Part shown: piece after piece, positions 25,299 to 31,850 of the stretch | How the letters are laid out: each line of letters starts with the position of its first letter | Numbering within the stretch: position 1 is the stretch's first letter | From: Actinomycetota bacterium | GTDB lineage: Bacteria > Actinomycetota > Actinomycetes > Nanopelagicales > Nanopelagicaceae | Length of the DNA stretch: 64,000 nt | NCBI GenBank assembly: GCA_041169865.1 | Contig: JBEEIL010000056.1 | Coordinates: 1,141 to 65,140 of the forward strand | Reading direction: 5' to 3' | Program-made: the position numbers and the translations under genes | The notes under the pieces: generated by a model | Database searches by the model: none | Seen by the model: only the letters and a program-made list of their open reading frames with translations | What the model was told of the DNA's origin: nothing

Positions 25299-27197
25299 TT
25301 AGCCTACTGTGATGGTCACAGTACTGCCACGCTTTACCTTCGTGCCTACCTTTGGTGAAATGTTGGTGACCTTCTTCACCGTCTTTTTACCAATCTTTTT
25401 CACAACTACTTTCAGGTCAAGATCTTTCAGAGCTTGTACCGCTTTCACCTCTTCCAGCGAGAAGATATTTGGGATGTAGGCATATTGGGTGCCCTTAGAA
25501 ATAATAAGCGCAACTTTGGAGCCTTTATCTGCTGTGCCGCCACCAGGCGGAGTTTGTGCAACTACTTCTCCAGGAAGTTGTGTCTCACTAAATGCATAGG
25601 TTGAGTCAACGACGAATCCTGATTCTTGAAGTTCGTTGAGCGCCTGATCGGAACTCTTTCCAACGTAATTTGCTAGAGCAACTTGCTCTAGCCCTTTTGA
25701 AATTCGCAGAACAACCAAAGCATTTCGCTTTACTTTTTCTCCAGAAGGTGGGTTTGAATCAATCACATAACCTTTAGGAATTGTGTTGCTAAATTCCTCA
25801 GAATTTGGTTGAAGAGATAGCGGCATTTCACCTAAGAGGCGACGCGCAACAATAGGCGTGAGTCCTTTGACCATGGGTAGAACGAAACGCTCAGGGCCTT
25901 TTGAGAGAATCAATTTAACCGCAGCGTTTTGATCTACCCGTCCGCCTGCTTCGGGAATAGTTTGAATGACGCGACCTTCCGGAATATCTTCACTGAATTT
26001 GCGCTCCACAACCACAGAAGTAAGTCCAAGAGGCGACAAGGCAGCTGAAGCTTCGGCCTCAGTGGCTCCAACGGTTGAAGGAACGACAACGCGAGAACCT
26101 GGACCAATGAGTACATACCAGCCCGTTATGCCCACTGCTATCGCCATCAATAGCGCAATCTTGCGATTTCGCCTGACTCGCTTGCTCGCCTTCTTCCGCT
26201 TTCTCACCTCTTCTGTCGTCTCACGAGGAGTTGGAACTGGAATCGCCTCAGTTATTTCGCGTATCTTTTTGCGAAGAGATTTTGGCGCCTTTTTTGGTCG
26301 CATCGGTTCGATCGGAATATCAAGTTCCAAACTTAACTGATTCTCTTTTGGATTTAGATTGTGGCTGATGCGAACAAGTTGGTCATGAAAGACAGTCGCA
26401 TCCTTCGGGCGTTCATCAGGATTAGAACTCGTTGCTGCATAAATCAATTGATCGAGTTCAGCCGGGATACCCTCTATCAAGCTACTGATTTTTGGCACGC
26501 GATTATTGACGTGCATATAGGCAATCTGAATTGGTTCAGCGCCTTCAAAAGGCTTCTGACCAGTTAAAATCTCAAATGCGGTAATTCCGATTGAGTAGAC
26601 ATCGCTGCGAGCATCTGCAATTCCACGCTGAACCTGTTCAGGTGATAAGTAGGAGACTGATCCCATAATGACGCTCGACTCTGCAGTCATGGTTGCGCCC
26701 AAGAGAGGTCCTTTAGCAAGACCGAAGTCAGCAATCTTGATTCGACCTTCTTTAGAGATCAGAATATTTTCAGGCTTGATATCTCTATGCACTATTCCTA
26801 ATTTGTGTGCGGCCGCGAGAGCGCTTAAAACAGGCAGGAGGAATTTAATTCCATCTTGAACCGAGAGCCTTCCTTGCTCATTGAGATATTCACGAAGCGT
26901 GTGTCCCTCAATTAACTCCATCACCAAAAAAATGGCAGGAGTACCATTTTGATTCCACCCTTGGTCCTGAACGGCCACAATATTCGGATGCGAAAGGGCA
27001 GCAGCAGCCTTCGCCTCACGGATAAATCGCTCAACGAACTGTTCATCTTGGGCAAGATGCGAGTGCATAATTTTGACAGCAACTTTTCTGTCAAGGCGAG
27101 TGTCTAGCGCTTCATAAATACTGGCCATACCCCCTGTGGCCATCTGACGAATGAGCTGATAGCGCCCATCAATAAGTTCGCCAGTAAGGTCAGACAT
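25299..27197 (-). CDS. PASTA-domain Ser/Thr protein kinase (PknL-like)
   Basis: GGMASIY, VAVKIM, HRDIKPEN and DFG; TM segment; PASTA repeats. Start at ATG 27197. Confidence 0.92.
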   Translation of the reverse strand: MSDLTGELIDGRYQLIRQMATGGMASIYEALDTRLDRKVAVKIMHSHLAQDEQFVERFIREAKAAAALSHPNIVAVQDQGWNQNGTPAIFLVMELIEGHTLREYLNEQGRLSVQDGIKFLLPVLSALAAAHKLGIVHRDIKPENILISKEGRIKIADFGLAKGPLLGATMTAESSVIMGSVSYLSPEQVQRGIADARSDVYSIGITAFEILTGQKPFEGAEPIQIAYMHVNNRVPKISSLIEGIPAELDQLIYAATSSNPDERPKDATVFHDQLVRISHNLNPKENQLSLELDIPIEPMRPKKAPKSLRKKIREITEAIPVPTPRETTEEVRKRKKASKRVRRNRKIALLMAIAVGITGWYVLIGPGSRVVVPSTVGATEAEASAALSPLGLTSVVVERKFSEDIPEGRVIQTIPEAGGRVDQNAAVKLILSKGPERFVLPMVKGLTPIVARRLLGEMPLSLQPNSEEFSNTIPKGYVIDSNPPSGEKVKRNALVVLRISKGLEQVALANYVGKSSDQALNELQESGFVVDSTYAFSETQLPGEVVAQTPPGGGTADKGSKVALIISKGTQYAYIPNIFSLEEVKAVQALKDLDLKVVVKKIGKKTVKKVTNISPKVGTKVKRGSTVTITVG

Positions 27198-27207
27198 AAA
27201 CCCAATT

Positions 27208-27744
27208 CTAGGTAGTGAGTACGAAATCCGCCGCGTTATCTGTCTTTTCGATAGCGAAATGTTGCTCTTGTGTGACAAGCCACTTTTGCATTGGATCTTT
27301 TATTACATTTCCATCTCGCTCTAAAACGCGGGTGAGGCCACTAGCTCTGTCGATATCAATCCAGATTAATGCTGTCAGGTATTCGCGAATGGCACGTTGG
27401 CCGCTCCCTACGCCTTCAAGAATTAAGAGTTGAGCAGGTGGAATCACCTCTGCTGGTAAAAATGTTGAGCGAAGCCAGTCGTATTTCGAGATTGATATCT
27501 GCTTATTTTGTTGATGTGAAATTGCAATCGATATGAGTGTCTTGGATAACTCTGGGGTGAGGGCGTTATCCCAGCCATCATAGAGATCATCCATATGAAT
27601 TATTGTGGAAGTGAAATTTGGGTATAGAGCCAGGTGCAGGTTAGTTGCCAGCGTTGTCTTACCTGCTCCTGCTGGCCCATCAATTGCAATGATGGGCCGC
27701 TGTGCTGCTTTACAAAGATCTAAGAGCGCGTCTATGAGATCCAT
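27208..27744 (-). CDS. Uridine/nucleoside kinase-like P-loop kinase
   Basis: IAIDGPAGAGKTT, HMDDLY and LILEGVG; overlaps the pnuC 3' end by 35 bp. Confidence 0.75.
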   Translation of the reverse strand: MDLIDALLDLCKAAQRPIIAIDGPAGAGKTTLATNLHLALYPNFTSTIIHMDDLYDGWDNALTPELSKTLISIAISHQQNKQISISKYDWLRSTFLPAEVIPPAQLLILEGVGSGQRAIREYLTALIWIDIDRASGLTRVLERDGNVIKDPMQKWLVTQEQHFAIEKTDNAADFVLTT

Positions 27745-28300
27745 ACCAAGTACTCCATCCCAGCGCTGCCATTATGGTAAATGCCACATAGAGCAGGGTT
27801 GTGAAGAGTAGACCCTGCGTTGCATAAAGCAGAACGTAACCAAGATCCACAATTAACCACAGTGGCCAACTGTCATATTTTTCGTAGACCATCAAAATCT
27901 GCGCAGTCAGACTTCCAAAGAAAAGAATGGCATCGACATATGTTGATGCAGCGCCAACCTCTTTGAGCACAGGCCCGAGCGCCAGAGTCGCCACGATTAT
28001 TGCGGCACATGTGTAGAGTCGATATTTTGTCTTAAAGGGACCAGGTTTAGCACCAGTTGGTTCCCAACCAAACCAACCAACGACCGCTGCGGCAATAAAG
28101 ACAAGTTGTAGAGCCGCACTGGCATATAACTCATACTGAAGAAAGAAGATGCCATAAAGGGCGCTACTGATCGCCCACCATGGCCATGTGATTCGTTTTC
28201 CAGTGATACCTAGACCTACTCCAATAAAAGATGCGATGGAGGCAACGAATTCGAGATACGAAACTTCATATCCCCAAGCGGTAAAGAAAGTTGAGAACAT
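27710..28300 (-). CDS. PnuC-family vitamin transporter (probably thiamine-related, PnuT-like)
   Basis: Membrane protein with the PnuC-type YDSWPLWLIVD motif; TPP-like riboswitch upstream; start ATG 28300 preceded by GAGG. Confidence 0.85.
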   Translation of the reverse strand: MFSTFFTAWGYEVSYLEFVASIASFIGVGLGITGKRITWPWWAISSALYGIFFLQYELYASAALQLVFIAAAVVGWFGWEPTGAKPGPFKTKYRLYTCAAIIVATLALGPVLKEVGAASTYVDAILFFGSLTAQILMVYEKYDSWPLWLIVDLGYVLLYATQGLLFTTLLYVAFTIMAALGWSTWYGSHRRALRSL

Positions 28301-28304
28301 TGCT

Positions 28305-28396
28305 AACCTCATTTCTAGATCCGCATTACCGGACCAGTCAGACGGTCGACATCATGAAGATGATGTCCTCTCAGCCAAGGTGGCTCCCGTGAGTTA
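28305..28396 (-). ncRNA. TPP (THI-box) riboswitch, variant
   Basis: Minus strand reads AACUC-ACGG-GA-GCCA-CCU-UGGC-UGAGAG-GACAUCAU-CUUC-AUGAUGUC-GA-CCGU-CUGA-CUGGUCCG-GUAAUG-CGGAUCUAG-AAAU-GAGGUU. It has the conserved CUGAGA, P2 ACGG/CCGU and the L5 UAAUG loop; the P1 3' strand covers the SD. Confidence 0.8.
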
Positions 28397-28401
28397 TTAC
28401 T

Positions 28402-29280
28402 TTAGCGAACTCGCGCCAAAATTGCTTGTATATAGGCAGCGCCAGCAACTCGCGCCCGACGCCCAGTCGAGGTCTTTGCTCGCTTATTGAAGATGTCATA
28501 TCCAATTGCCTCTACTTCATCAACAATTCCGCAGTAGAGCTCACTAGCAGCGCGAATACAAGGACGAGAGACTTTATCGAGATATTGAATTCCTATTTCT
28601 GCTTCGGCTTGTAACGAGCGCACTCGGTCTATTTGAAATTTAAGAGCCGCAATAATTTCTGGAGTCAGAGTACGGCGCTCTAGGGTTGCGCGGTCTACAC
28701 CAAACTCAGCCAACTCTTGTAGCGGTAAATAGACTCGCCCGCGATCAAGATCTTCCCCAACATCGCGGATGAAGTTAGCGAGTTGAAAGGCTATCCCCAA
28801 TTTCTGGGCTGCCTCAAAAGCTCGATCGTCGGAGTAACCCAAGATGGGAACCATCTCTAGACCGATAACTGCGGCAGAGCCATAAACATATTCATAGAGA
28901 TCTTCATACCTTTGATATTCCGTCACTGTTAGATCCATCTCCATACTGTGCAGAAAGTCCACAAAATGTTGATAAGGAATATTGAAGGTTTGAACTGTAT
29001 CGACAAGAGCTCGTCCGATATGGTCGGAACTAGTGCCCGCTTTAAGATCGGCAAGCACACCGCTGCTCCAACTTCGTAACGCATCTGCTTTTTCTTGCGG
29101 AGATAGAGTAGATGCTAAGTCATCAACGATTTCATCGGCATAGCGCGCAAAACCATATAGTGCATGGACATACGGGCGCTTATGCGCAGGAAGTAGAAGC
29201 GTTGCTAAGTAATAAGTTTTTCCATGAAGCGAATTAAGCCGCTTACATTCTTCATAAGAAGCTTTGAGCGCTGCATCCAT
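28402..29280 (-). CDS. crtB: Phytoene synthase
   Basis: HGKTYY, ADEIVD, FQLANFIRDVGED and GRVYLP. Confidence 0.95.
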   Translation of the reverse strand: MDAALKASYEECKRLNSLHGKTYYLATLLLPAHKRPYVHALYGFARYADEIVDDLASTLSPQEKADALRSWSSGVLADLKAGTSSDHIGRALVDTVQTFNIPYQHFVDFLHSMEMDLTVTEYQRYEDLYEYVYGSAAVIGLEMVPILGYSDDRAFEAAQKLGIAFQLANFIRDVGEDLDRGRVYLPLQELAEFGVDRATLERRTLTPEIIAALKFQIDRVRSLQAEAEIGIQYLDKVSRPCIRAASELYCGIVDEVEAIGYDIFNKRAKTSTGRRARVAGAAYIQAILARVR

Positions 29281-30765
29281 TTACTTAACCGGACCCACAA
29301 TTCGCTCTGCAGCAAGGCGACCTGAAATCAACACCATCGGAACTCCAACTCCTGGCTGGGTTCCACTTCCAGCAAAGACAACATTCTCAAAACCAGCGGC
29401 CATATTGCGAGGTCTAAATGGTCCAGTTTGGAAGAAGGTGTGAGCGCTAGCAAAGGGAGCGCCACGTTCCATTCCCTGCGCTTGCCAATCGAGGGGAGTA
29501 GTAAGAACCTCGGTCTCAATTGCATCTTCAAATCCCGTGTAACCGCGTTCTTCAAGGGTTGCAATCATCTGGTCGCGATAAGGCTTTGCCTGTTTGGTCC
29601 AATCAATATCGGCATCCAAGTTAGGGGTTGGATAGAGAATGTAATAGGACTGTTTTCCAGCAGGCGCAAGAGAAGGATCATCATGAGTTGGCACTGTGAC
29701 CAACACGGATGGATCGCTCATCAGAGTCTTCTTATTGATGAGTTCGTCAAAGACTCCATCCCAGGATTCGCCGAAGTGGATATTGTGATGAGCGATATGG
29801 TCATACTTCTTAGAAGAACCAACCAGCAAAGTTGCACACGATGGCGAATAATTTAGGCGCTTAATGTTGAGCGGAGTCCTACCTAGCAATTCGCGCCAGA
29901 CCACAGGTAGATCAGGGTTCATGACGACAACATCACACGCGATTCTTTCGCCTGTGTGAGTAAGTACCGCTTTTACACGACCGTTCTCTTTTTCCAGTCC
30001 TGTGACTGTTGTGTTGTATTTAAATTCAACGCCATGTTTCTGCGCTGCCGCTGCTAGCGCCCGAGGAACCGCATGCATACCGCCCTTTGGAAAAAAGACT
30101 CCATTGACCGAATCCATGTAGGCGATTACTGCATAAATCGCTAGCGCTTGCTGTGGGCTTACGCCTGCGTACATAGCTTGGAATGAATAAACCTTTTGCA
30201 GACGTGGATCCTTCAAATACTGATTTACCTTGGGCTGCAAGTGCCTAAACCCGCCCAAGGCTATCAAGCGCGCCAAGTTGGGAGTCAAAAGATTGAGTGG
30301 TGAGTCAATATTCTTATCAATGAAGTCATTCATTTCATACTTATAGAGCTTGGTGACAAAGTCAACGTACTTGCGATAACCAAGCGCTTCTTCGGCAGAG
30401 ACATGCGTGCGAATCTCTTCTTCCATCTGCGCTGTATTTGCATGAACATCAATCTGCGAGCCATCCGCATAGAAGGCACGATATAGAGGAGAAAGTGGCA
30501 TGAGTTCTAGCCAATCTTTCAAATCTTCGCCGACACAGCTAAATGCATCTTGAATCAGCGATGGCATAGTGAGCACAGTTGGACCAGTATCAAATGCATA
30601 GCCATCTTTGTTGAGTAGACCGTTACGTCCACCAGGAACAGATTCACGCTCCACGATTGTTACTTTGCGACCCGCACCCGCCAGCCGGAGCGCTGCGCTG
30701 AGCCCACCAAGTCCTGCGCCAACTACAACGACATGATCTGTTGGACCTTTAACTCTTCTTACCAT
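29281..30765 (-). CDS. crtI: Phytoene desaturase
   Basis: VVGAGLGGL, FDTGPT, PKGG and C-terminal QPGVGVPMVLISG; lies between crtE and crtB. Confidence 0.93.
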   Translation of the reverse strand: MVRRVKGPTDHVVVVGAGLGGLSAALRLAGAGRKVTIVERESVPGGRNGLLNKDGYAFDTGPTVLTMPSLIQDAFSCVGEDLKDWLELMPLSPLYRAFYADGSQIDVHANTAQMEEEIRTHVSAEEALGYRKYVDFVTKLYKYEMNDFIDKNIDSPLNLLTPNLARLIALGGFRHLQPKVNQYLKDPRLQKVYSFQAMYAGVSPQQALAIYAVIAYMDSVNGVFFPKGGMHAVPRALAAAAQKHGVEFKYNTTVTGLEKENGRVKAVLTHTGERIACDVVVMNPDLPVVWRELLGRTPLNIKRLNYSPSCATLLVGSSKKYDHIAHHNIHFGESWDGVFDELINKKTLMSDPSVLVTVPTHDDPSLAPAGKQSYYILYPTPNLDADIDWTKQAKPYRDQMIATLEERGYTGFEDAIETEVLTTPLDWQAQGMERGAPFASAHTFFQTGPFRPRNMAAGFENVVFAGSGTQPGVGVPMVLISGRLAAERIVGPVK

Positions 30766-31850
30766 TAGTAACTCCTACGGATTGCGGTCTCAGCAAGAGC
30801 CAAGAGAAATGGACGTGCCTGGTCATGAATTGCTGCGCTTGCTGCAGCTGATTGGGATTCTTGCGCAAGACGGTCGATTAACTGCTCCACATCCGCTACC
30901 GCGCCAGTTTCAATGATCAGCGAACGGAGTGAATCTATCTTTTCAGGTGAGAGCGCAGGATTGCCAAGATTATTTTCTAACTCAGCGCGGGCGCTTTCCT
31001 GCGCTTTCTCGAGGGTCATCGCTATTAGCACTGTGCGCTTTCCTTCACGCAAATCATCTCCAGCTGGTTTTCCAGTTGTCTCTGGATCTCCAAAGACTCC
31101 TAACAAGTCATCGCGTAACTGAAATGCTTCGCCTAGTGGAAGGCCGTACGCTGATAGGACGCTGAGGAGTTCGGAATTTTCTGACGAATCTGGTCGTGCA
31201 ATTACGGCTCCTAGATGTAGTGGTCGCTCAATTGTGTACTTTCCAGATTTATATCGCGCGATACGCAATGAACGTTCCACGCTATATTCGCGTTCACCAG
31301 CTTCGCGAACATCAAGGTATTGACCAGCCATTAATTCGATACGCATCTCATCATGTATGCGTAACGCAGCTGAAAGTGATGATGGGGTGATACCAGAGTT
31401 GTGCAACATGTGATCAGACCAGACCAGCGCCAAATCTCCCAAGAGAACCGCTGCTGCCTCACCAAATTGTTCTGCGCTTCCAGCCATGCTGCCTTTGCGA
31501 TGTAGATTTTCAAAGTGGCGATGAATTGCTGGCTTGCCGCGACGGGTATCAGATCCATCCATTAAATCATCGTGTATGAGTGCGCAAGCTTGTAAAAGTT
31601 CAAGGCTTGCCATGGCGCGAATTTCAGATTTACCCGGTGTAAGTCCAGCTGCAATGTATCCGGCATATGCAAAGAGTGGGCGAAGTCGCTTACCGCCTTC
31701 GAGCAAGTAATCTTCTAGAGCATCACAGACAGGAACCATCTCAGATGCGATATTGGTCAGATAGGTGCGCTGGTCTTGCAGATAATGGCGTAGCTCTTCT
31801 TTGACAGCATCGCGCACCGCTGTTGCGCTATTGGAGAGCTCTTTATCCAC
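30765..31850 (-). CDS. crtE: Geranylgeranyl diphosphate synthase
   Basis: GGKRLRP, LIHDDLMD (FARM), GQYLD, FQLRDD (SARM) and DLREGKRT. Confidence 0.92.
   Translation of the reverse strand: MDKELSNSATAVRDAVKEELRHYLQDQRTYLTNIASEMVPVCDALEDYLLEGGKRLRPLFAYAGYIAAGLTPGKSEIRAMASLELLQACALIHDDLMDGSDTRRGKPAIHRHFENLHRKGSMAGSAEQFGEAAAVLLGDLALVWSDHMLHNSGITPSSLSAALRIHDEMRIELMAGQYLDVREAGEREYSVERSLRIARYKSGKYTIERPLHLGAVIARPDSSENSELLSVLSAYGLPLGEAFQLRDDLLGVFGDPETTGKPAGDDLREGKRTVLIAMTLEKAQESARAELENNLGNPALSPEKIDSLRSLIIETGAVADVEQLIDRLAQESQSAAASAAIHDQARPFLLALAETAIRRSY

What the first reader, a model, noticed from the sequence alone, without database searches (positions are those of the whole stretch)
28305..28396. 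TPP-riboswitch variant with an altered pyrophosphate-sensing arm: possible thiamine or precursor sensor
Seen: the pyrimidine-binding half is canonical (P2 ACGG/CCGU, P3 GCCA/UGGC, J3/2 CUGAGA, a perfect 8-bp P3a hairpin) and L5 has UAAUG. The P4/P5 arm, however, reads CUGGUCCG-GUAAUG-CGGAUCUAG instead of the canonical CCUGAUCUGG-AUAAUG-CCAGCGUAGG. Established: the J4/5 (GA) and J5/4 (CG) internal loop binds the pyrophosphate via Mg2+ in E. coli thiM. Here GAU becomes GGU and CGU becomes AUCU, so the arm can pair almost continuously with one bulged U. The P1 3' strand (GAGGUU) contains the pnuC SD, implying translational OFF control. Inference: ligand specificity may have shifted to unphosphorylated thiamine, TMP or an HMP-type precursor. 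This would fit a likely vitamin-auxotrophic organism and would be a variant riboswitch class. I cannot confirm whether it has been described.
Basis: partly seen in the sequence, partly recalled or inferred. Interest (0 to 1): 0.8.

Follow-up and report, generated by a model that had tools for sequence, protein, structure and literature searches.

The report
TPP riboswitch variant lacking pyrophosphate pocket
The leader of a vitamin-B1 uptake operon in abundant freshwater acI actinobacteria is a conserved TPP-riboswitch derivative whose pyrophosphate-binding loop has become a plain helix, so it probably reads thiamine without checking its phosphates; such variants were mentioned in 2017 but never described.

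Summary
On the minus strand (about 28310-28392) lies a TPP-type aptamer with intact P2, P3, CUGAGA pocket and GUAAUG loop. Its P4/P5 arm is a continuous 8-bp helix with one bulged U, so C77 and G78, which bind the pyrophosphate in E. coli thiM, are gone. Rfam TPP scores it 33.7 bits (cut-off 54.3).

It is not decay. The same form precedes a pnuC-like gene plus a P-loop kinase in 133 related Nanopelagicaceae loci, and the arm pairs covary. Family genomes with thiE carry canonical aptamers before thiO, thiC or cytX and no variant. Variant carriers have thiL; thiE was not found in them, and TPK and ThiK were not found in the five checked. The operon therefore most likely salvages intact thiamine, and the ligand is most likely the thiamine moiety, not an HMP precursor.

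A conserved -10-like box 7-9 nt upstream leaves almost no 5' strand, and P1 shows no covariation.

Kang 2017 reported this element as a "THI element". McCown 2017 mentions unpublished P4-P5 variants that bind thiamin. An earlier agent of this scan reached the same reading on another acI genome. Verdict: new variant of a known kind; ligand untested.

The parts
28399..28404 (-). -10-like hexamer TAAAGT (TAnnnT, preceded by GC). It overlaps the crtB stop codon TAA (28404-28402). The predicted transcription start is about 28392-28394.
   Evidence: A TAnnnT hexamer lies 4-9 nt (116 of 128 at 7-9 nt) upstream of the aptamer in 128 of 128 distinct related loci. It is there whatever gene lies upstream. 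The generic sigma-70 scan found no full promoter. The start site is inferred, not measured.
28310..28392 (-). Variant TPP-type aptamer. P2 28390-28387/28345-28342; P3 28384-28381/28377-28374; pocket CUGAGA 28374-28369; P3a 28367-28348; J2/4 28341-28338; P4/P5 arm 28337-28330 with 28323-28315 (bulged U at 28317 or 28319); L5 GUAAUG 28329-28324.
   Evidence: Rfam TPP 33.7 bits, below the cut-off of 54.3. Family-specific model R1 64.2 bits. Pair counts and covariation. Arm variants.
28315..28337 (-). The altered 'pyrophosphate sensor' arm: a continuous 8-bp helix (6 bp, a 1-nt 3' bulge, 2 bp) capped by GUAAUG. It has no J4/5-J5/4 internal loop and no equivalents of thiM C77/G78.
   Evidence: Direct reading. 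The same design is in 133 loci. Pair 3 occurs as A-U, G-C or C-G; pair 4 as G.U, G-C or A-U; pair 6 as U-A or C-G. The bulge is absent, C, U, A or 3 nt.
28307..28310 (-). Shine-Dalgarno GAGG of pnuT. It lies 4 nt after the end of the arm and 6 nt before the ATG at 28300.
   Evidence: Direct reading. The aptamer end lies 13 nt from the start codon on average in 127 loci. No terminator was found.
27710..28300 (-). pnuC-family transporter, probable thiamine facilitator PnuT (196 aa from the ATG at 28300; the ORF listing starts it at 28312).
   Evidence: PF04973 E 7e-38 and TIGR01528. Distant match to PnuC structure 4QTN. Homologues start MSTFFTAWGYEVS. A pnuC-like gene follows the variant in every locus examined.
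27208..27744 (-). P-loop kinase of the uridine-kinase/PRK family (178 aa). It overlaps the pnuT end by 35 nt. Candidate thiamine kinase that traps imported thiamine as TMP.
   Evidence: PF00485 E 8e-8; PRK06547 'hypothetical' 89 bits, below its cut-off. A homologue (39-71% identity) lies directly after pnuT in all variant loci with enough downstream sequence to test. Databases name it 'uridine kinase' or nothing. Best solved relative is 1rz3, a hypothetical protein. The function is inferred from context: thiL is present, and thiK, TPK and thiE were not found.

Best explanation
This is the regulatory leader of a two-gene thiamine salvage operon in a 'Candidatus Planktophila'-like acI actinobacterium. 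The operon encodes the PnuT facilitator and a trapping P-loop kinase.

The RNA descends from the TPP riboswitch. It keeps the pyrimidine-binding half (P2, P3, CUGAGA) and the L5 loop that docks the two arms. The internal loop that holds the Mg2+-pyrophosphate in canonical aptamers is replaced by an uninterrupted helix. It therefore most likely recognises the thiamine (aminopyrimidine-thiazole) moiety with little or no discrimination between thiamine, TMP and TPP. In effect it would report the cell's total vitamin B1 pool.

Ligand binding most likely lowers translation of pnuT and the coupled kinase. The Shine-Dalgarno sequence starts only 3-5 nt after the aptamer and there is no terminator.

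Shown here: the anatomy, its conservation and covariation, the gene linkage, and the pathway context.
Inferred: the ligand, the direction of control (OFF), and how the SD is occluded (a very short P1 or steric blocking at the junction).
For: 1. Anatomy: the canonical half is intact and the arm is continuous.
2. Conservation: 54 family loci and 80 further Planktophila/Nanopelagicaceae loci score 61-102 bits with the variant model R1 (one locus, cut at a contig end, scores 49.5). The canonical TPP aptamers of the same family score 47.5 bits or less. Rfam TPP ranks the two groups the other way round.
3. Covariation: 97.8% of cells are paired. 10 of 20 pairs show double changes, including arm pairs: AU 44/GC 7; GU 40/GC 8/AU 2; UA 33/CG 18. 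More arm variants appear. The G60 and U79 equivalents vary, and C77/G78 are absent.
4. Linkage: every variant is followed by a pnuC-like gene. The kinase homologue follows wherever enough downstream sequence is held.
5. Pathway: thiL is present in five of five genomes checked, including the window's own. TPK, ThiE and ThiK were not found. ThiD gave only one weak hit above the cut-off.
6. Partition across 101 family genomes: ThiE is in 10, and these are the genomes with canonical aptamers before thiO, thiC or cytX and no variant. The roughly 70 variant carriers all lack it.
7. Literature: acI strains are thiamine auxotrophs with a 'THI element' before a putative PnuT (PMC5301498). One of those strains, IMCC26103, carries this variant (L149). 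McCown et al. [quoted passage not shown]
8. Platform: no terminator, and the aptamer end is 13 nt from the start codon on average.
Against: - No binding data exist for this RNA. The 2017 remark is unpublished, gives no sequences, and may concern other variants.
- No secondary-structure switch was found. P1 is not supported by the cognate versus non-cognate duplex test (p = 0.85) or by complementarity matrices.
- Forcing the aptamer fold does not change predicted SD accessibility (0.42 against 0.46).
- The direction of control is assumed by analogy.
- The minimum-free-energy fold is not unusual (z = -1.15).
- The transcription start is predicted from a motif, not measured.
- The genomes are related, so the counts overstate independence.
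Confidence: 0.55

Rival explanations
1. It is still a TPP-selective riboswitch. The pyrophosphate would be read in a new way, for example through Mg2+ bound in the major groove at the conserved G.U pair of the arm or at the bulge. The logic would be ordinary end-product feedback.
For: TPP is the usual feedback signal for thiamine transporters. A G.U pair occupies arm position 4 in 40 of 51 distinct family sequences, and G.U pairs often bind metals (general knowledge). One other actinobacterial family has a canonical aptamer before a PnuC-like gene (L191).
Against: The G.U is replaced by G-C or A-U in many lineages. A-U is the commonest form in one large Planktophila group. The bulge is absent in 33 of 54 loci and is C, U, A or 3 nt elsewhere. 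No position in the arm other than paired ones is conserved, so nothing is left to build a specific phosphate site.
Confidence: 0.2
2. It is a thiamine-specific sensor that rejects phosphorylated forms and acts as an ON switch. It would induce the facilitator and the trapping kinase only when free thiamine has entered the cell, for instance by stabilising the 5'-terminal P2 and thereby the mRNA or its translation.
For: The RNA probably starts at P2, so ligand binding would tuck in the 5' end. No SD-sequestering helix forms in the bound state. Loss of the phosphate pocket would be adaptive if the substrate rather than the product were sensed.
Against: An auxotroph that shuts off its only predicted thiamine route when starved seems maladaptive. 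No alternative pairing conserved across genera was found. All characterised TPP-class switches on transporters are OFF switches (general knowledge). McCown 2017 speaks of similar affinities, not rejection of TPP.
Confidence: 0.12
3. It senses, and the operon imports, a thiamine precursor or breakdown product (HMP, AmMP, FAMP), or even a different pyridinium or pyrimidine compound such as nicotinamide riboside, with the kinase acting on that compound.
For: Only the pyrimidine-binding half is conserved. PnuC-family proteins carry several vitamins. The kinase belongs to the family that includes nucleoside kinases.
Against: ThiE was not found in any variant carrier among 101 family genomes, and ThiD gave no convincing hit, so HMP-type precursors could not be used. 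ThiL is retained and needs a source of TMP. The J3/2 pocket is identical to canonical TPP aptamers. The L5 loop and the second arm are retained, which a pyrimidine-only ligand would hardly need. Rfam found no NAD+-II or other family here.
Confidence: 0.08
4. It is a decayed, non-functional remnant of a TPP riboswitch, or only a structured 5' end with no ligand.
For: The Rfam score is below the cut-off. No thermodynamic signal. No expression platform found.
Against: 31 invariant columns across 53 sequences from 18 genera. Compensatory changes occur in every helix. The element is in about 70% of family genomes sampled and in 80 of 80 further PnuT loci.
Confidence: 0.03

Closest known systems
TPP riboswitch / THI element (Rfam RF00059; E. 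coli thiM aptamer)
   Same: Three-way junction; P2-P3 arm with the CUGAGA pyrimidine pocket; optional P3a; second arm capped by the (G/A)UAAUG loop; location before a thiamine transport gene.
   Different: The J4/5-J5/4 internal loop that holds the pyrophosphate through Mg2+ (G60, C77, G78 in thiM numbering; residue roles from my own knowledge of the 2006 structures) is replaced by Watson-Crick pairs, and the arm is two layers shorter. The score is 20 bits below the Rfam cut-off. There is no demonstrable P1, and a -10 box lies 7-9 nt upstream.
P4-P5 variant TPP aptamers mentioned by McCown et al. 2017 (RNA 23:995, PMC5473149; 'Roth, McCown, Zhang, Lee, Breaker, in prep.')
   Same: [quoted passage not shown] That is the kind of change seen here.
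   Different: No sequences, taxa or gene contexts are given. No later paper was found, and a 2022 ligand review lists only TPP and HMP-PP. Whether the acI form was among them is unknown.
THI element before putative pnuC/PnuT in acI genomes (Kang et al. 2017, PMC5301498)
   Same: The same locus in the same lineage. Strain IMCC26103 (CP015604) carries the variant at this place (L149).
   Different: The paper calls it a TPP riboswitch and does not note the missing pyrophosphate pocket, the linked kinase or the promoter-proximal position.
Bacteroides thiamine uptake operon with pnuT and tnr3 behind a TPP riboswitch (Costliow & Degnan 2017, PMC5613172; listed, details from my own knowledge)
   Same: A riboswitch-controlled PnuT facilitator coupled to a kinase that traps thiamine.
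   Different: There the aptamer is canonical, the kinase is a thiamine pyrophosphokinase, and an outer-membrane receptor is included. Here the aptamer is the variant, and the kinase is a uridine-kinase-like P-loop protein that would need ThiL for the second step.
HMP-PP riboswitch (thiS motif; Atilho et al. 2019, PMC6478431)
   Same: A thiamine-pathway riboswitch whose ligand is not TPP.
   Different: It is an unrelated small aptamer embedded in a terminator, before thiazole synthesis genes. Nothing of that design is present here.

Membership tests
TPP riboswitch (RF00059) | Score at or above the Rfam gathering threshold (54.3 bits) | tested here: not met
   33.7 bits in the window. Relatives score 30-46 bits.
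TPP riboswitch (RF00059) | Pyrimidine-sensor half: P2, P3 and J3/2 CUGAGA | tested here: met
   Invariant CGGGAG...GCUGAGAGG...GACCG in 53 sequences. P2 and P3 pairs are 94-100% paired with covariation.
TPP riboswitch (RF00059) | L5 loop (UAAUG) closing the second arm | tested here: met
   (G/A)UAAUG in all loci. The tertiary docking itself cannot be tested.
TPP riboswitch (RF00059) | J4/5-J5/4 internal loop forming the pyrophosphate/Mg2+ pocket (thiM G60, C77, G78) | tested here: not met
   The arm is a continuous helix. The CG of J5/4 is absent, and the G60/U79 equivalents vary as G.U, G-C or A-U.
TPP riboswitch (RF00059) | Closing helix P1 that links the aptamer to the expression platform | tested here: inconclusive
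   The window can form ACUCA/UGAG(G)U. However, a conserved -10-like box leaves only 1-3 nt of leader, and no P1 signal appears across loci.
TPP riboswitch (RF00059) | Selective binding of TPP over thiamine and TMP | not testable with these tools
   Needs in-line probing or ITC.
P4-P5 variant TPP aptamers (McCown 2017 remark) | Mutated pyrophosphate-binding core in an otherwise TPP-like aptamer | tested here: met
P4-P5 variant TPP aptamers (McCown 2017 remark) | Thiamin bound about as well as TMP and TPP | not testable with these tools
   Only the statement in PMC5473149.
NAD+-II riboswitch (pnuC motif) | Match to the pnuC-motif model before a pnuC gene | tested here: not met
   With E up to 10 over 28150-28550, cmscan lists only TPP and three chance lncRNA or snoRNA hits.
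HMP-PP riboswitch (thiS motif) | Small hairpin aptamer embedded in an intrinsic terminator, before thiS or thiazole genes | tested here: not met
   No terminator, no Rfam match, and the downstream gene is pnuC-like.
PnuT (thiamine-specific PnuC-family facilitator) | PnuC-family fold (PF04973) under a thiamine-type riboswitch | tested here: met
   PF04973 E 7e-38. The variant aptamer lies directly upstream in all loci examined.
PnuT (thiamine-specific PnuC-family facilitator) | Thiamine transport | not testable with these tools
   Inferred from context only.

The most novel reading that the evidence does not exclude
The acI element is a natural riboswitch for unphosphorylated vitamin B1. It would either be blind to the phosphates or actively prefer thiamine. 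It would be built as a P1-less aptamer that begins at the transcription start and controls the adjacent SD without any secondary-structure platform. Its partner P-loop 'uridine kinase' would be a so far unrecognised thiamine kinase that, together with ThiL, forms the only route to TPP in the most abundant freshwater bacteria.
Probability: 0.35. Interest if true: 0.75.

Novelty: new variant of a known kind. Interest (0 to 1): 0.6.

Why it matters
- TPP is the most widespread riboswitch class and a textbook case of phosphate recognition by RNA. A conserved natural derivative that has deleted the phosphate pocket but kept the rest offers a clean system. It can show how ligand specificity evolves and how the two-arm fold closes without the Mg2+-pyrophosphate bridge.
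- It occurs in acI/Nanopelagicaceae, which are dominant, vitamin-dependent freshwater bacterioplankton. It bears on how these cells sense and ration vitamin B1.
- Rfam-threshold annotation misses it, so B1 regulation is under-called in these genomes and in freshwater metagenomes.
- The linked kinase is a concrete candidate for a missing thiamine kinase.

Tried and rejected
- **P1/SD sequestration.**
  - Cognate 5' flanks do not pair better with their own tails than with tails of other loci or than shuffled flanks (means -3.7, -3.9 and -4.2 kcal/mol; p = 0.85 and 0.96).
  - Complementarity matrices show at most a 2-3 bp signal in the window's lineage and none in two other groups.
  - Partition-function SD accessibility is the same with and without the aptamer enforced (0.42 and 0.46; less accessible in 19 of 127 loci, more in 37, unchanged in 71).
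- **Thermodynamic stability.** z = -1.15, not significant.
- **Generic sigma-70 promoter and terminator scan.** Nothing found. The -10 evidence comes from comparative analysis instead.
- **Expression data.** Only assembled contigs were available. One metatranscriptome contig from a relative spans 28173-28416, and another covers 28311-28350. These cannot show a start site, a strand or true transcription.
- **Spread beyond the family.**
  - The genome-contig scan with a PnuT alignment returned only close Planktophila/Nanopelagicaceae relatives.
  - Class-wide and phylum-wide samples (150 genomes each) gave no acI-type hit outside the family. Absence elsewhere is not shown.
- **NAD+-II, HMP-PP and other Rfam families.** No match.
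- **Kinase function.** Sequence searches give only 'uridine kinase' or hypothetical labels. No structure prediction was run.

Full report
**What is there.**
The minus strand between crtB (28402-29280) and a pnuC-family gene holds a TPP-like aptamer.
- The arm reads CUGGUCCG / CGGAUCUAG. It pairs over 8 bp with one bulged U.
- Rfam TPP matches 28294-28400 at 33.7 bits against a gathering score of 54.3. The unmatched and deleted positions lie in P4, J4/5 and J5/4.
- Nothing in the window reaches any Rfam gathering score.

**Context.**
- On the same strand lie crtE, crtI and crtB. They are followed by the element, the pnuC-like gene (PF04973), a 178-aa P-loop kinase of the uridine-kinase/PRK family that overlaps it by 35 nt, and then pknB.
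- The likely pnuT start is the ATG at 28300, not the one at 28312. Homologues begin MSTFFTAWGYEVS, and GAGG lies 6 nt upstream.
- The closest PnuT loci in public genomes (84-94% identity) are titled Candidatus Planktophila or Nanopelagicaceae, that is acI.

**It is conserved, not decayed.**
- In 101 genomes of the family, 83 have a TPP-like hit but only 12 reach the cut-off. About 70 have a single hit of 30-46 bits.
- I fetched 54 of these. All are followed by a pnuC-like gene of 183-204 aa. Where the contig allows, the kinase homologue follows as well.
- A covariance model built from 32 of them (R1) scores variants at 63-102 bits. The family's canonical aptamers score 47.5 bits or less.
- Eighty further PnuT loci from public genomes all carry the variant at 61-87 bits, apart from one cut at a contig end. 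Among them is strain IMCC26103 of Kang et al. 2017 (L149).
- On the model-fitted alignment 97.8% of cells pair and 10 of 20 pairs show double changes. Slid and shuffled controls score far lower. The alignment is fitted to the model, which favours the structure.

**The arm.**
- The commonest form is CCAGUUCG-GUAAUG-CGAAUUGG, a perfect 8-bp helix.
- Other lineages have 6 bp, a 1-3 nt bulge on the 3' strand (C, U or A), then 2 bp.
- Pair 3 is A-U, G-C or C-G. Pair 4 is G.U, G-C or A-U. Pair 6 is U-A or C-G.
- The window's own form differs from the consensus by two compensatory pair changes.
- Canonical members of the same family keep CCUG-AU-CCGG / CCGG-CG-UAGG.
- Thus the CG of J5/4 is gone, and the G.U that corresponds to G60.U79 is not conserved. 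In E. coli thiM, C77 and G78 contact the pyrophosphate and its Mg2+ (established structural knowledge, from memory).

**What the operon does.**
- In the window's genome and four complete relatives, thiL is present.
- In the same genomes thiamine pyrophosphokinase, ThiE and ThiK are not found. ThiD gives only one weak hit above the cut-off.
- Across 101 family genomes ThiE occurs in 10. These are the genomes whose canonical aptamers precede thiO, thiC or a cytX-like permease. None of them has the variant, and no variant carrier has ThiE.
- The genomes are related (four genera carry ThiE), so this is a pattern, not a statistic.
- A retained ThiL without any TMP synthase requires a thiamine kinase. 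The P-loop kinase welded to pnuT is the obvious candidate.
- This matches Kang et al. 2017, who found acI strains to be thiamine auxotrophs with a THI element before a putative PnuT.
- It argues against HMP-type precursors as substrate or signal.

**Ligand.**
- It cannot be tested here.
- The pyrimidine pocket is unchanged, the second arm and its docking loop are kept, and the phosphate site is erased without any new conserved unpaired position.
- The most economical reading is recognition of the thiamine moiety with little regard to phosphorylation.
- McCown et al. [quoted passage not shown]
- I found no later description. A 2022 review of riboswitch ligands lists only TPP and HMP-PP.

**Expression platform.**
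- All 128 distinct upstream sequences have a TAnnnT hexamer, mostly preceded by GC. Its last T lies 4-9 nt before the A of ACGGGAG, and 7-9 nt in 116 of them.
- In Planktophila the hexamer often overlaps the crtB stop codon. It is equally present in genera where no gene ends there. It therefore behaves as a -10 box.
- The RNA should then start 1-3 nt before P2, leaving room for a P1 of at most about 3 bp.
- Consistent with this, I found no P1 signal and no change in predicted SD accessibility.
- There is no terminator.
- The SD begins 3-5 nt after the arm, and the start codon follows 13 nt after the arm on average.
- I therefore propose translational repression by occlusion of the SD at the closed three-way junction. 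In the window's lineage a short UCA/UGA-type P1 could help. This step is inference, and an ON switch is not excluded.

**Related forms.**
- In genus g4 of the family, a ThiB-like binding-protein gene is preceded by a third form with AG/AAU in place of AU/CG (L026, L052).
- In another actinobacterial family, PnuC-like genes followed by a different P-loop protein are preceded by continuous arms with one bulged A or G. Binding-protein genes there keep canonical aptamers, and one PnuC-like gene has a canonical one.
- Loss of the pocket thus recurs and is mostly tied to PnuT.
- Samples of 150 genomes each from the class and the phylum gave no acI-type element outside the family.

**Earlier work of this scan.**
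A previous agent reached the same reading on another acI genome (e1-5458328). Another proposed the P-loop kinase next to PnuC as a thiamine salvage kinase (e1-3332222). I re-derived both from this window's data.

**Verdict.**
The finding is real and conserved, and it is a variant of a known class. The altered-ligand idea is reasonable and partly anticipated in the literature, but it remains unproven. The HMP reading and the P1/SD detail are not supported.

Noticed in passing
window 28399-28404 (minus strand): A conserved TAnnnT hexamer (here TAAAGT, overlapping the crtB stop codon) lies 7-9 nt before the aptamer in 128 of 128 related loci. The family's canonical TPP leaders listed mostly show the same spacing (read by eye). 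This suggests riboswitches that begin at the transcription start, without P1.
   Followed up: yes
window 27208-27744 (minus strand): The P-loop 'uridine kinase'-like gene overlaps pnuT by 35 nt and is conserved after pnuT in all variant loci. With thiL present and thiK, TPK and thiE not found, it is a candidate new type of thiamine kinase.
   Followed up: partly
window 28298-28312 (minus strand): the ORF listing starts pnuT at the ATG at 28312, which lies inside the leader. Homologues and the GAGG at 28310-28307 point to the ATG at 28300 as the real start.
   Followed up: yes
L026:1511-1595 (+) and L052:847-931 (-): A third P4-P5 form (CCUG-AG-UGG / CCA-AAU-CAGG) lies before a ThiB-like ABC binding-protein gene in genus g4 of the family. 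Rfam scores are 42 and 38.5 bits. Genome G049 holds both this form and the PnuT form.
   Followed up: partly
L077:1501-1584 (-), L197, L204-L207, L210: Another actinobacterial family has different pocket-less arms (continuous helix with one bulged A or G) before PnuC-like genes. In L077 the next gene encodes a different P-loop protein (Walker A GGECSGKTT). The taxon name is not known to me.
   Followed up: partly
L009, L011, L012, L014, L015, L026 (about 90-110 nt after the aptamer start): Leaders of the ThiB-like genes hold CCCGUG (CCGUG in L011) downstream. This is complementary to the 5'-terminal CACGGG (the P2 5' strand). It looks like an expression platform that competes with P2 rather than P1.
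   Followed up: no
window 25299-27278 and 28402-31850 (minus strand): A PknB-type PASTA kinase lies downstream. A crtE-crtI-crtB carotenoid gene row lies upstream of the operon, which is typical of rhodopsin-bearing acI genomes.
   Followed up: no
G000:C44:3728-4537: thiL of the window's own genome (202 bits). It is the only thiamine-pathway enzyme found apart from the candidate kinase.
   Followed up: partly
window 28283-28396: In a freshwater metagenome (run X1) summed contig depth over the aptamer is 20-60 times that of the flanks. Many related strains share this stretch nearly unchanged.
   Followed up: no
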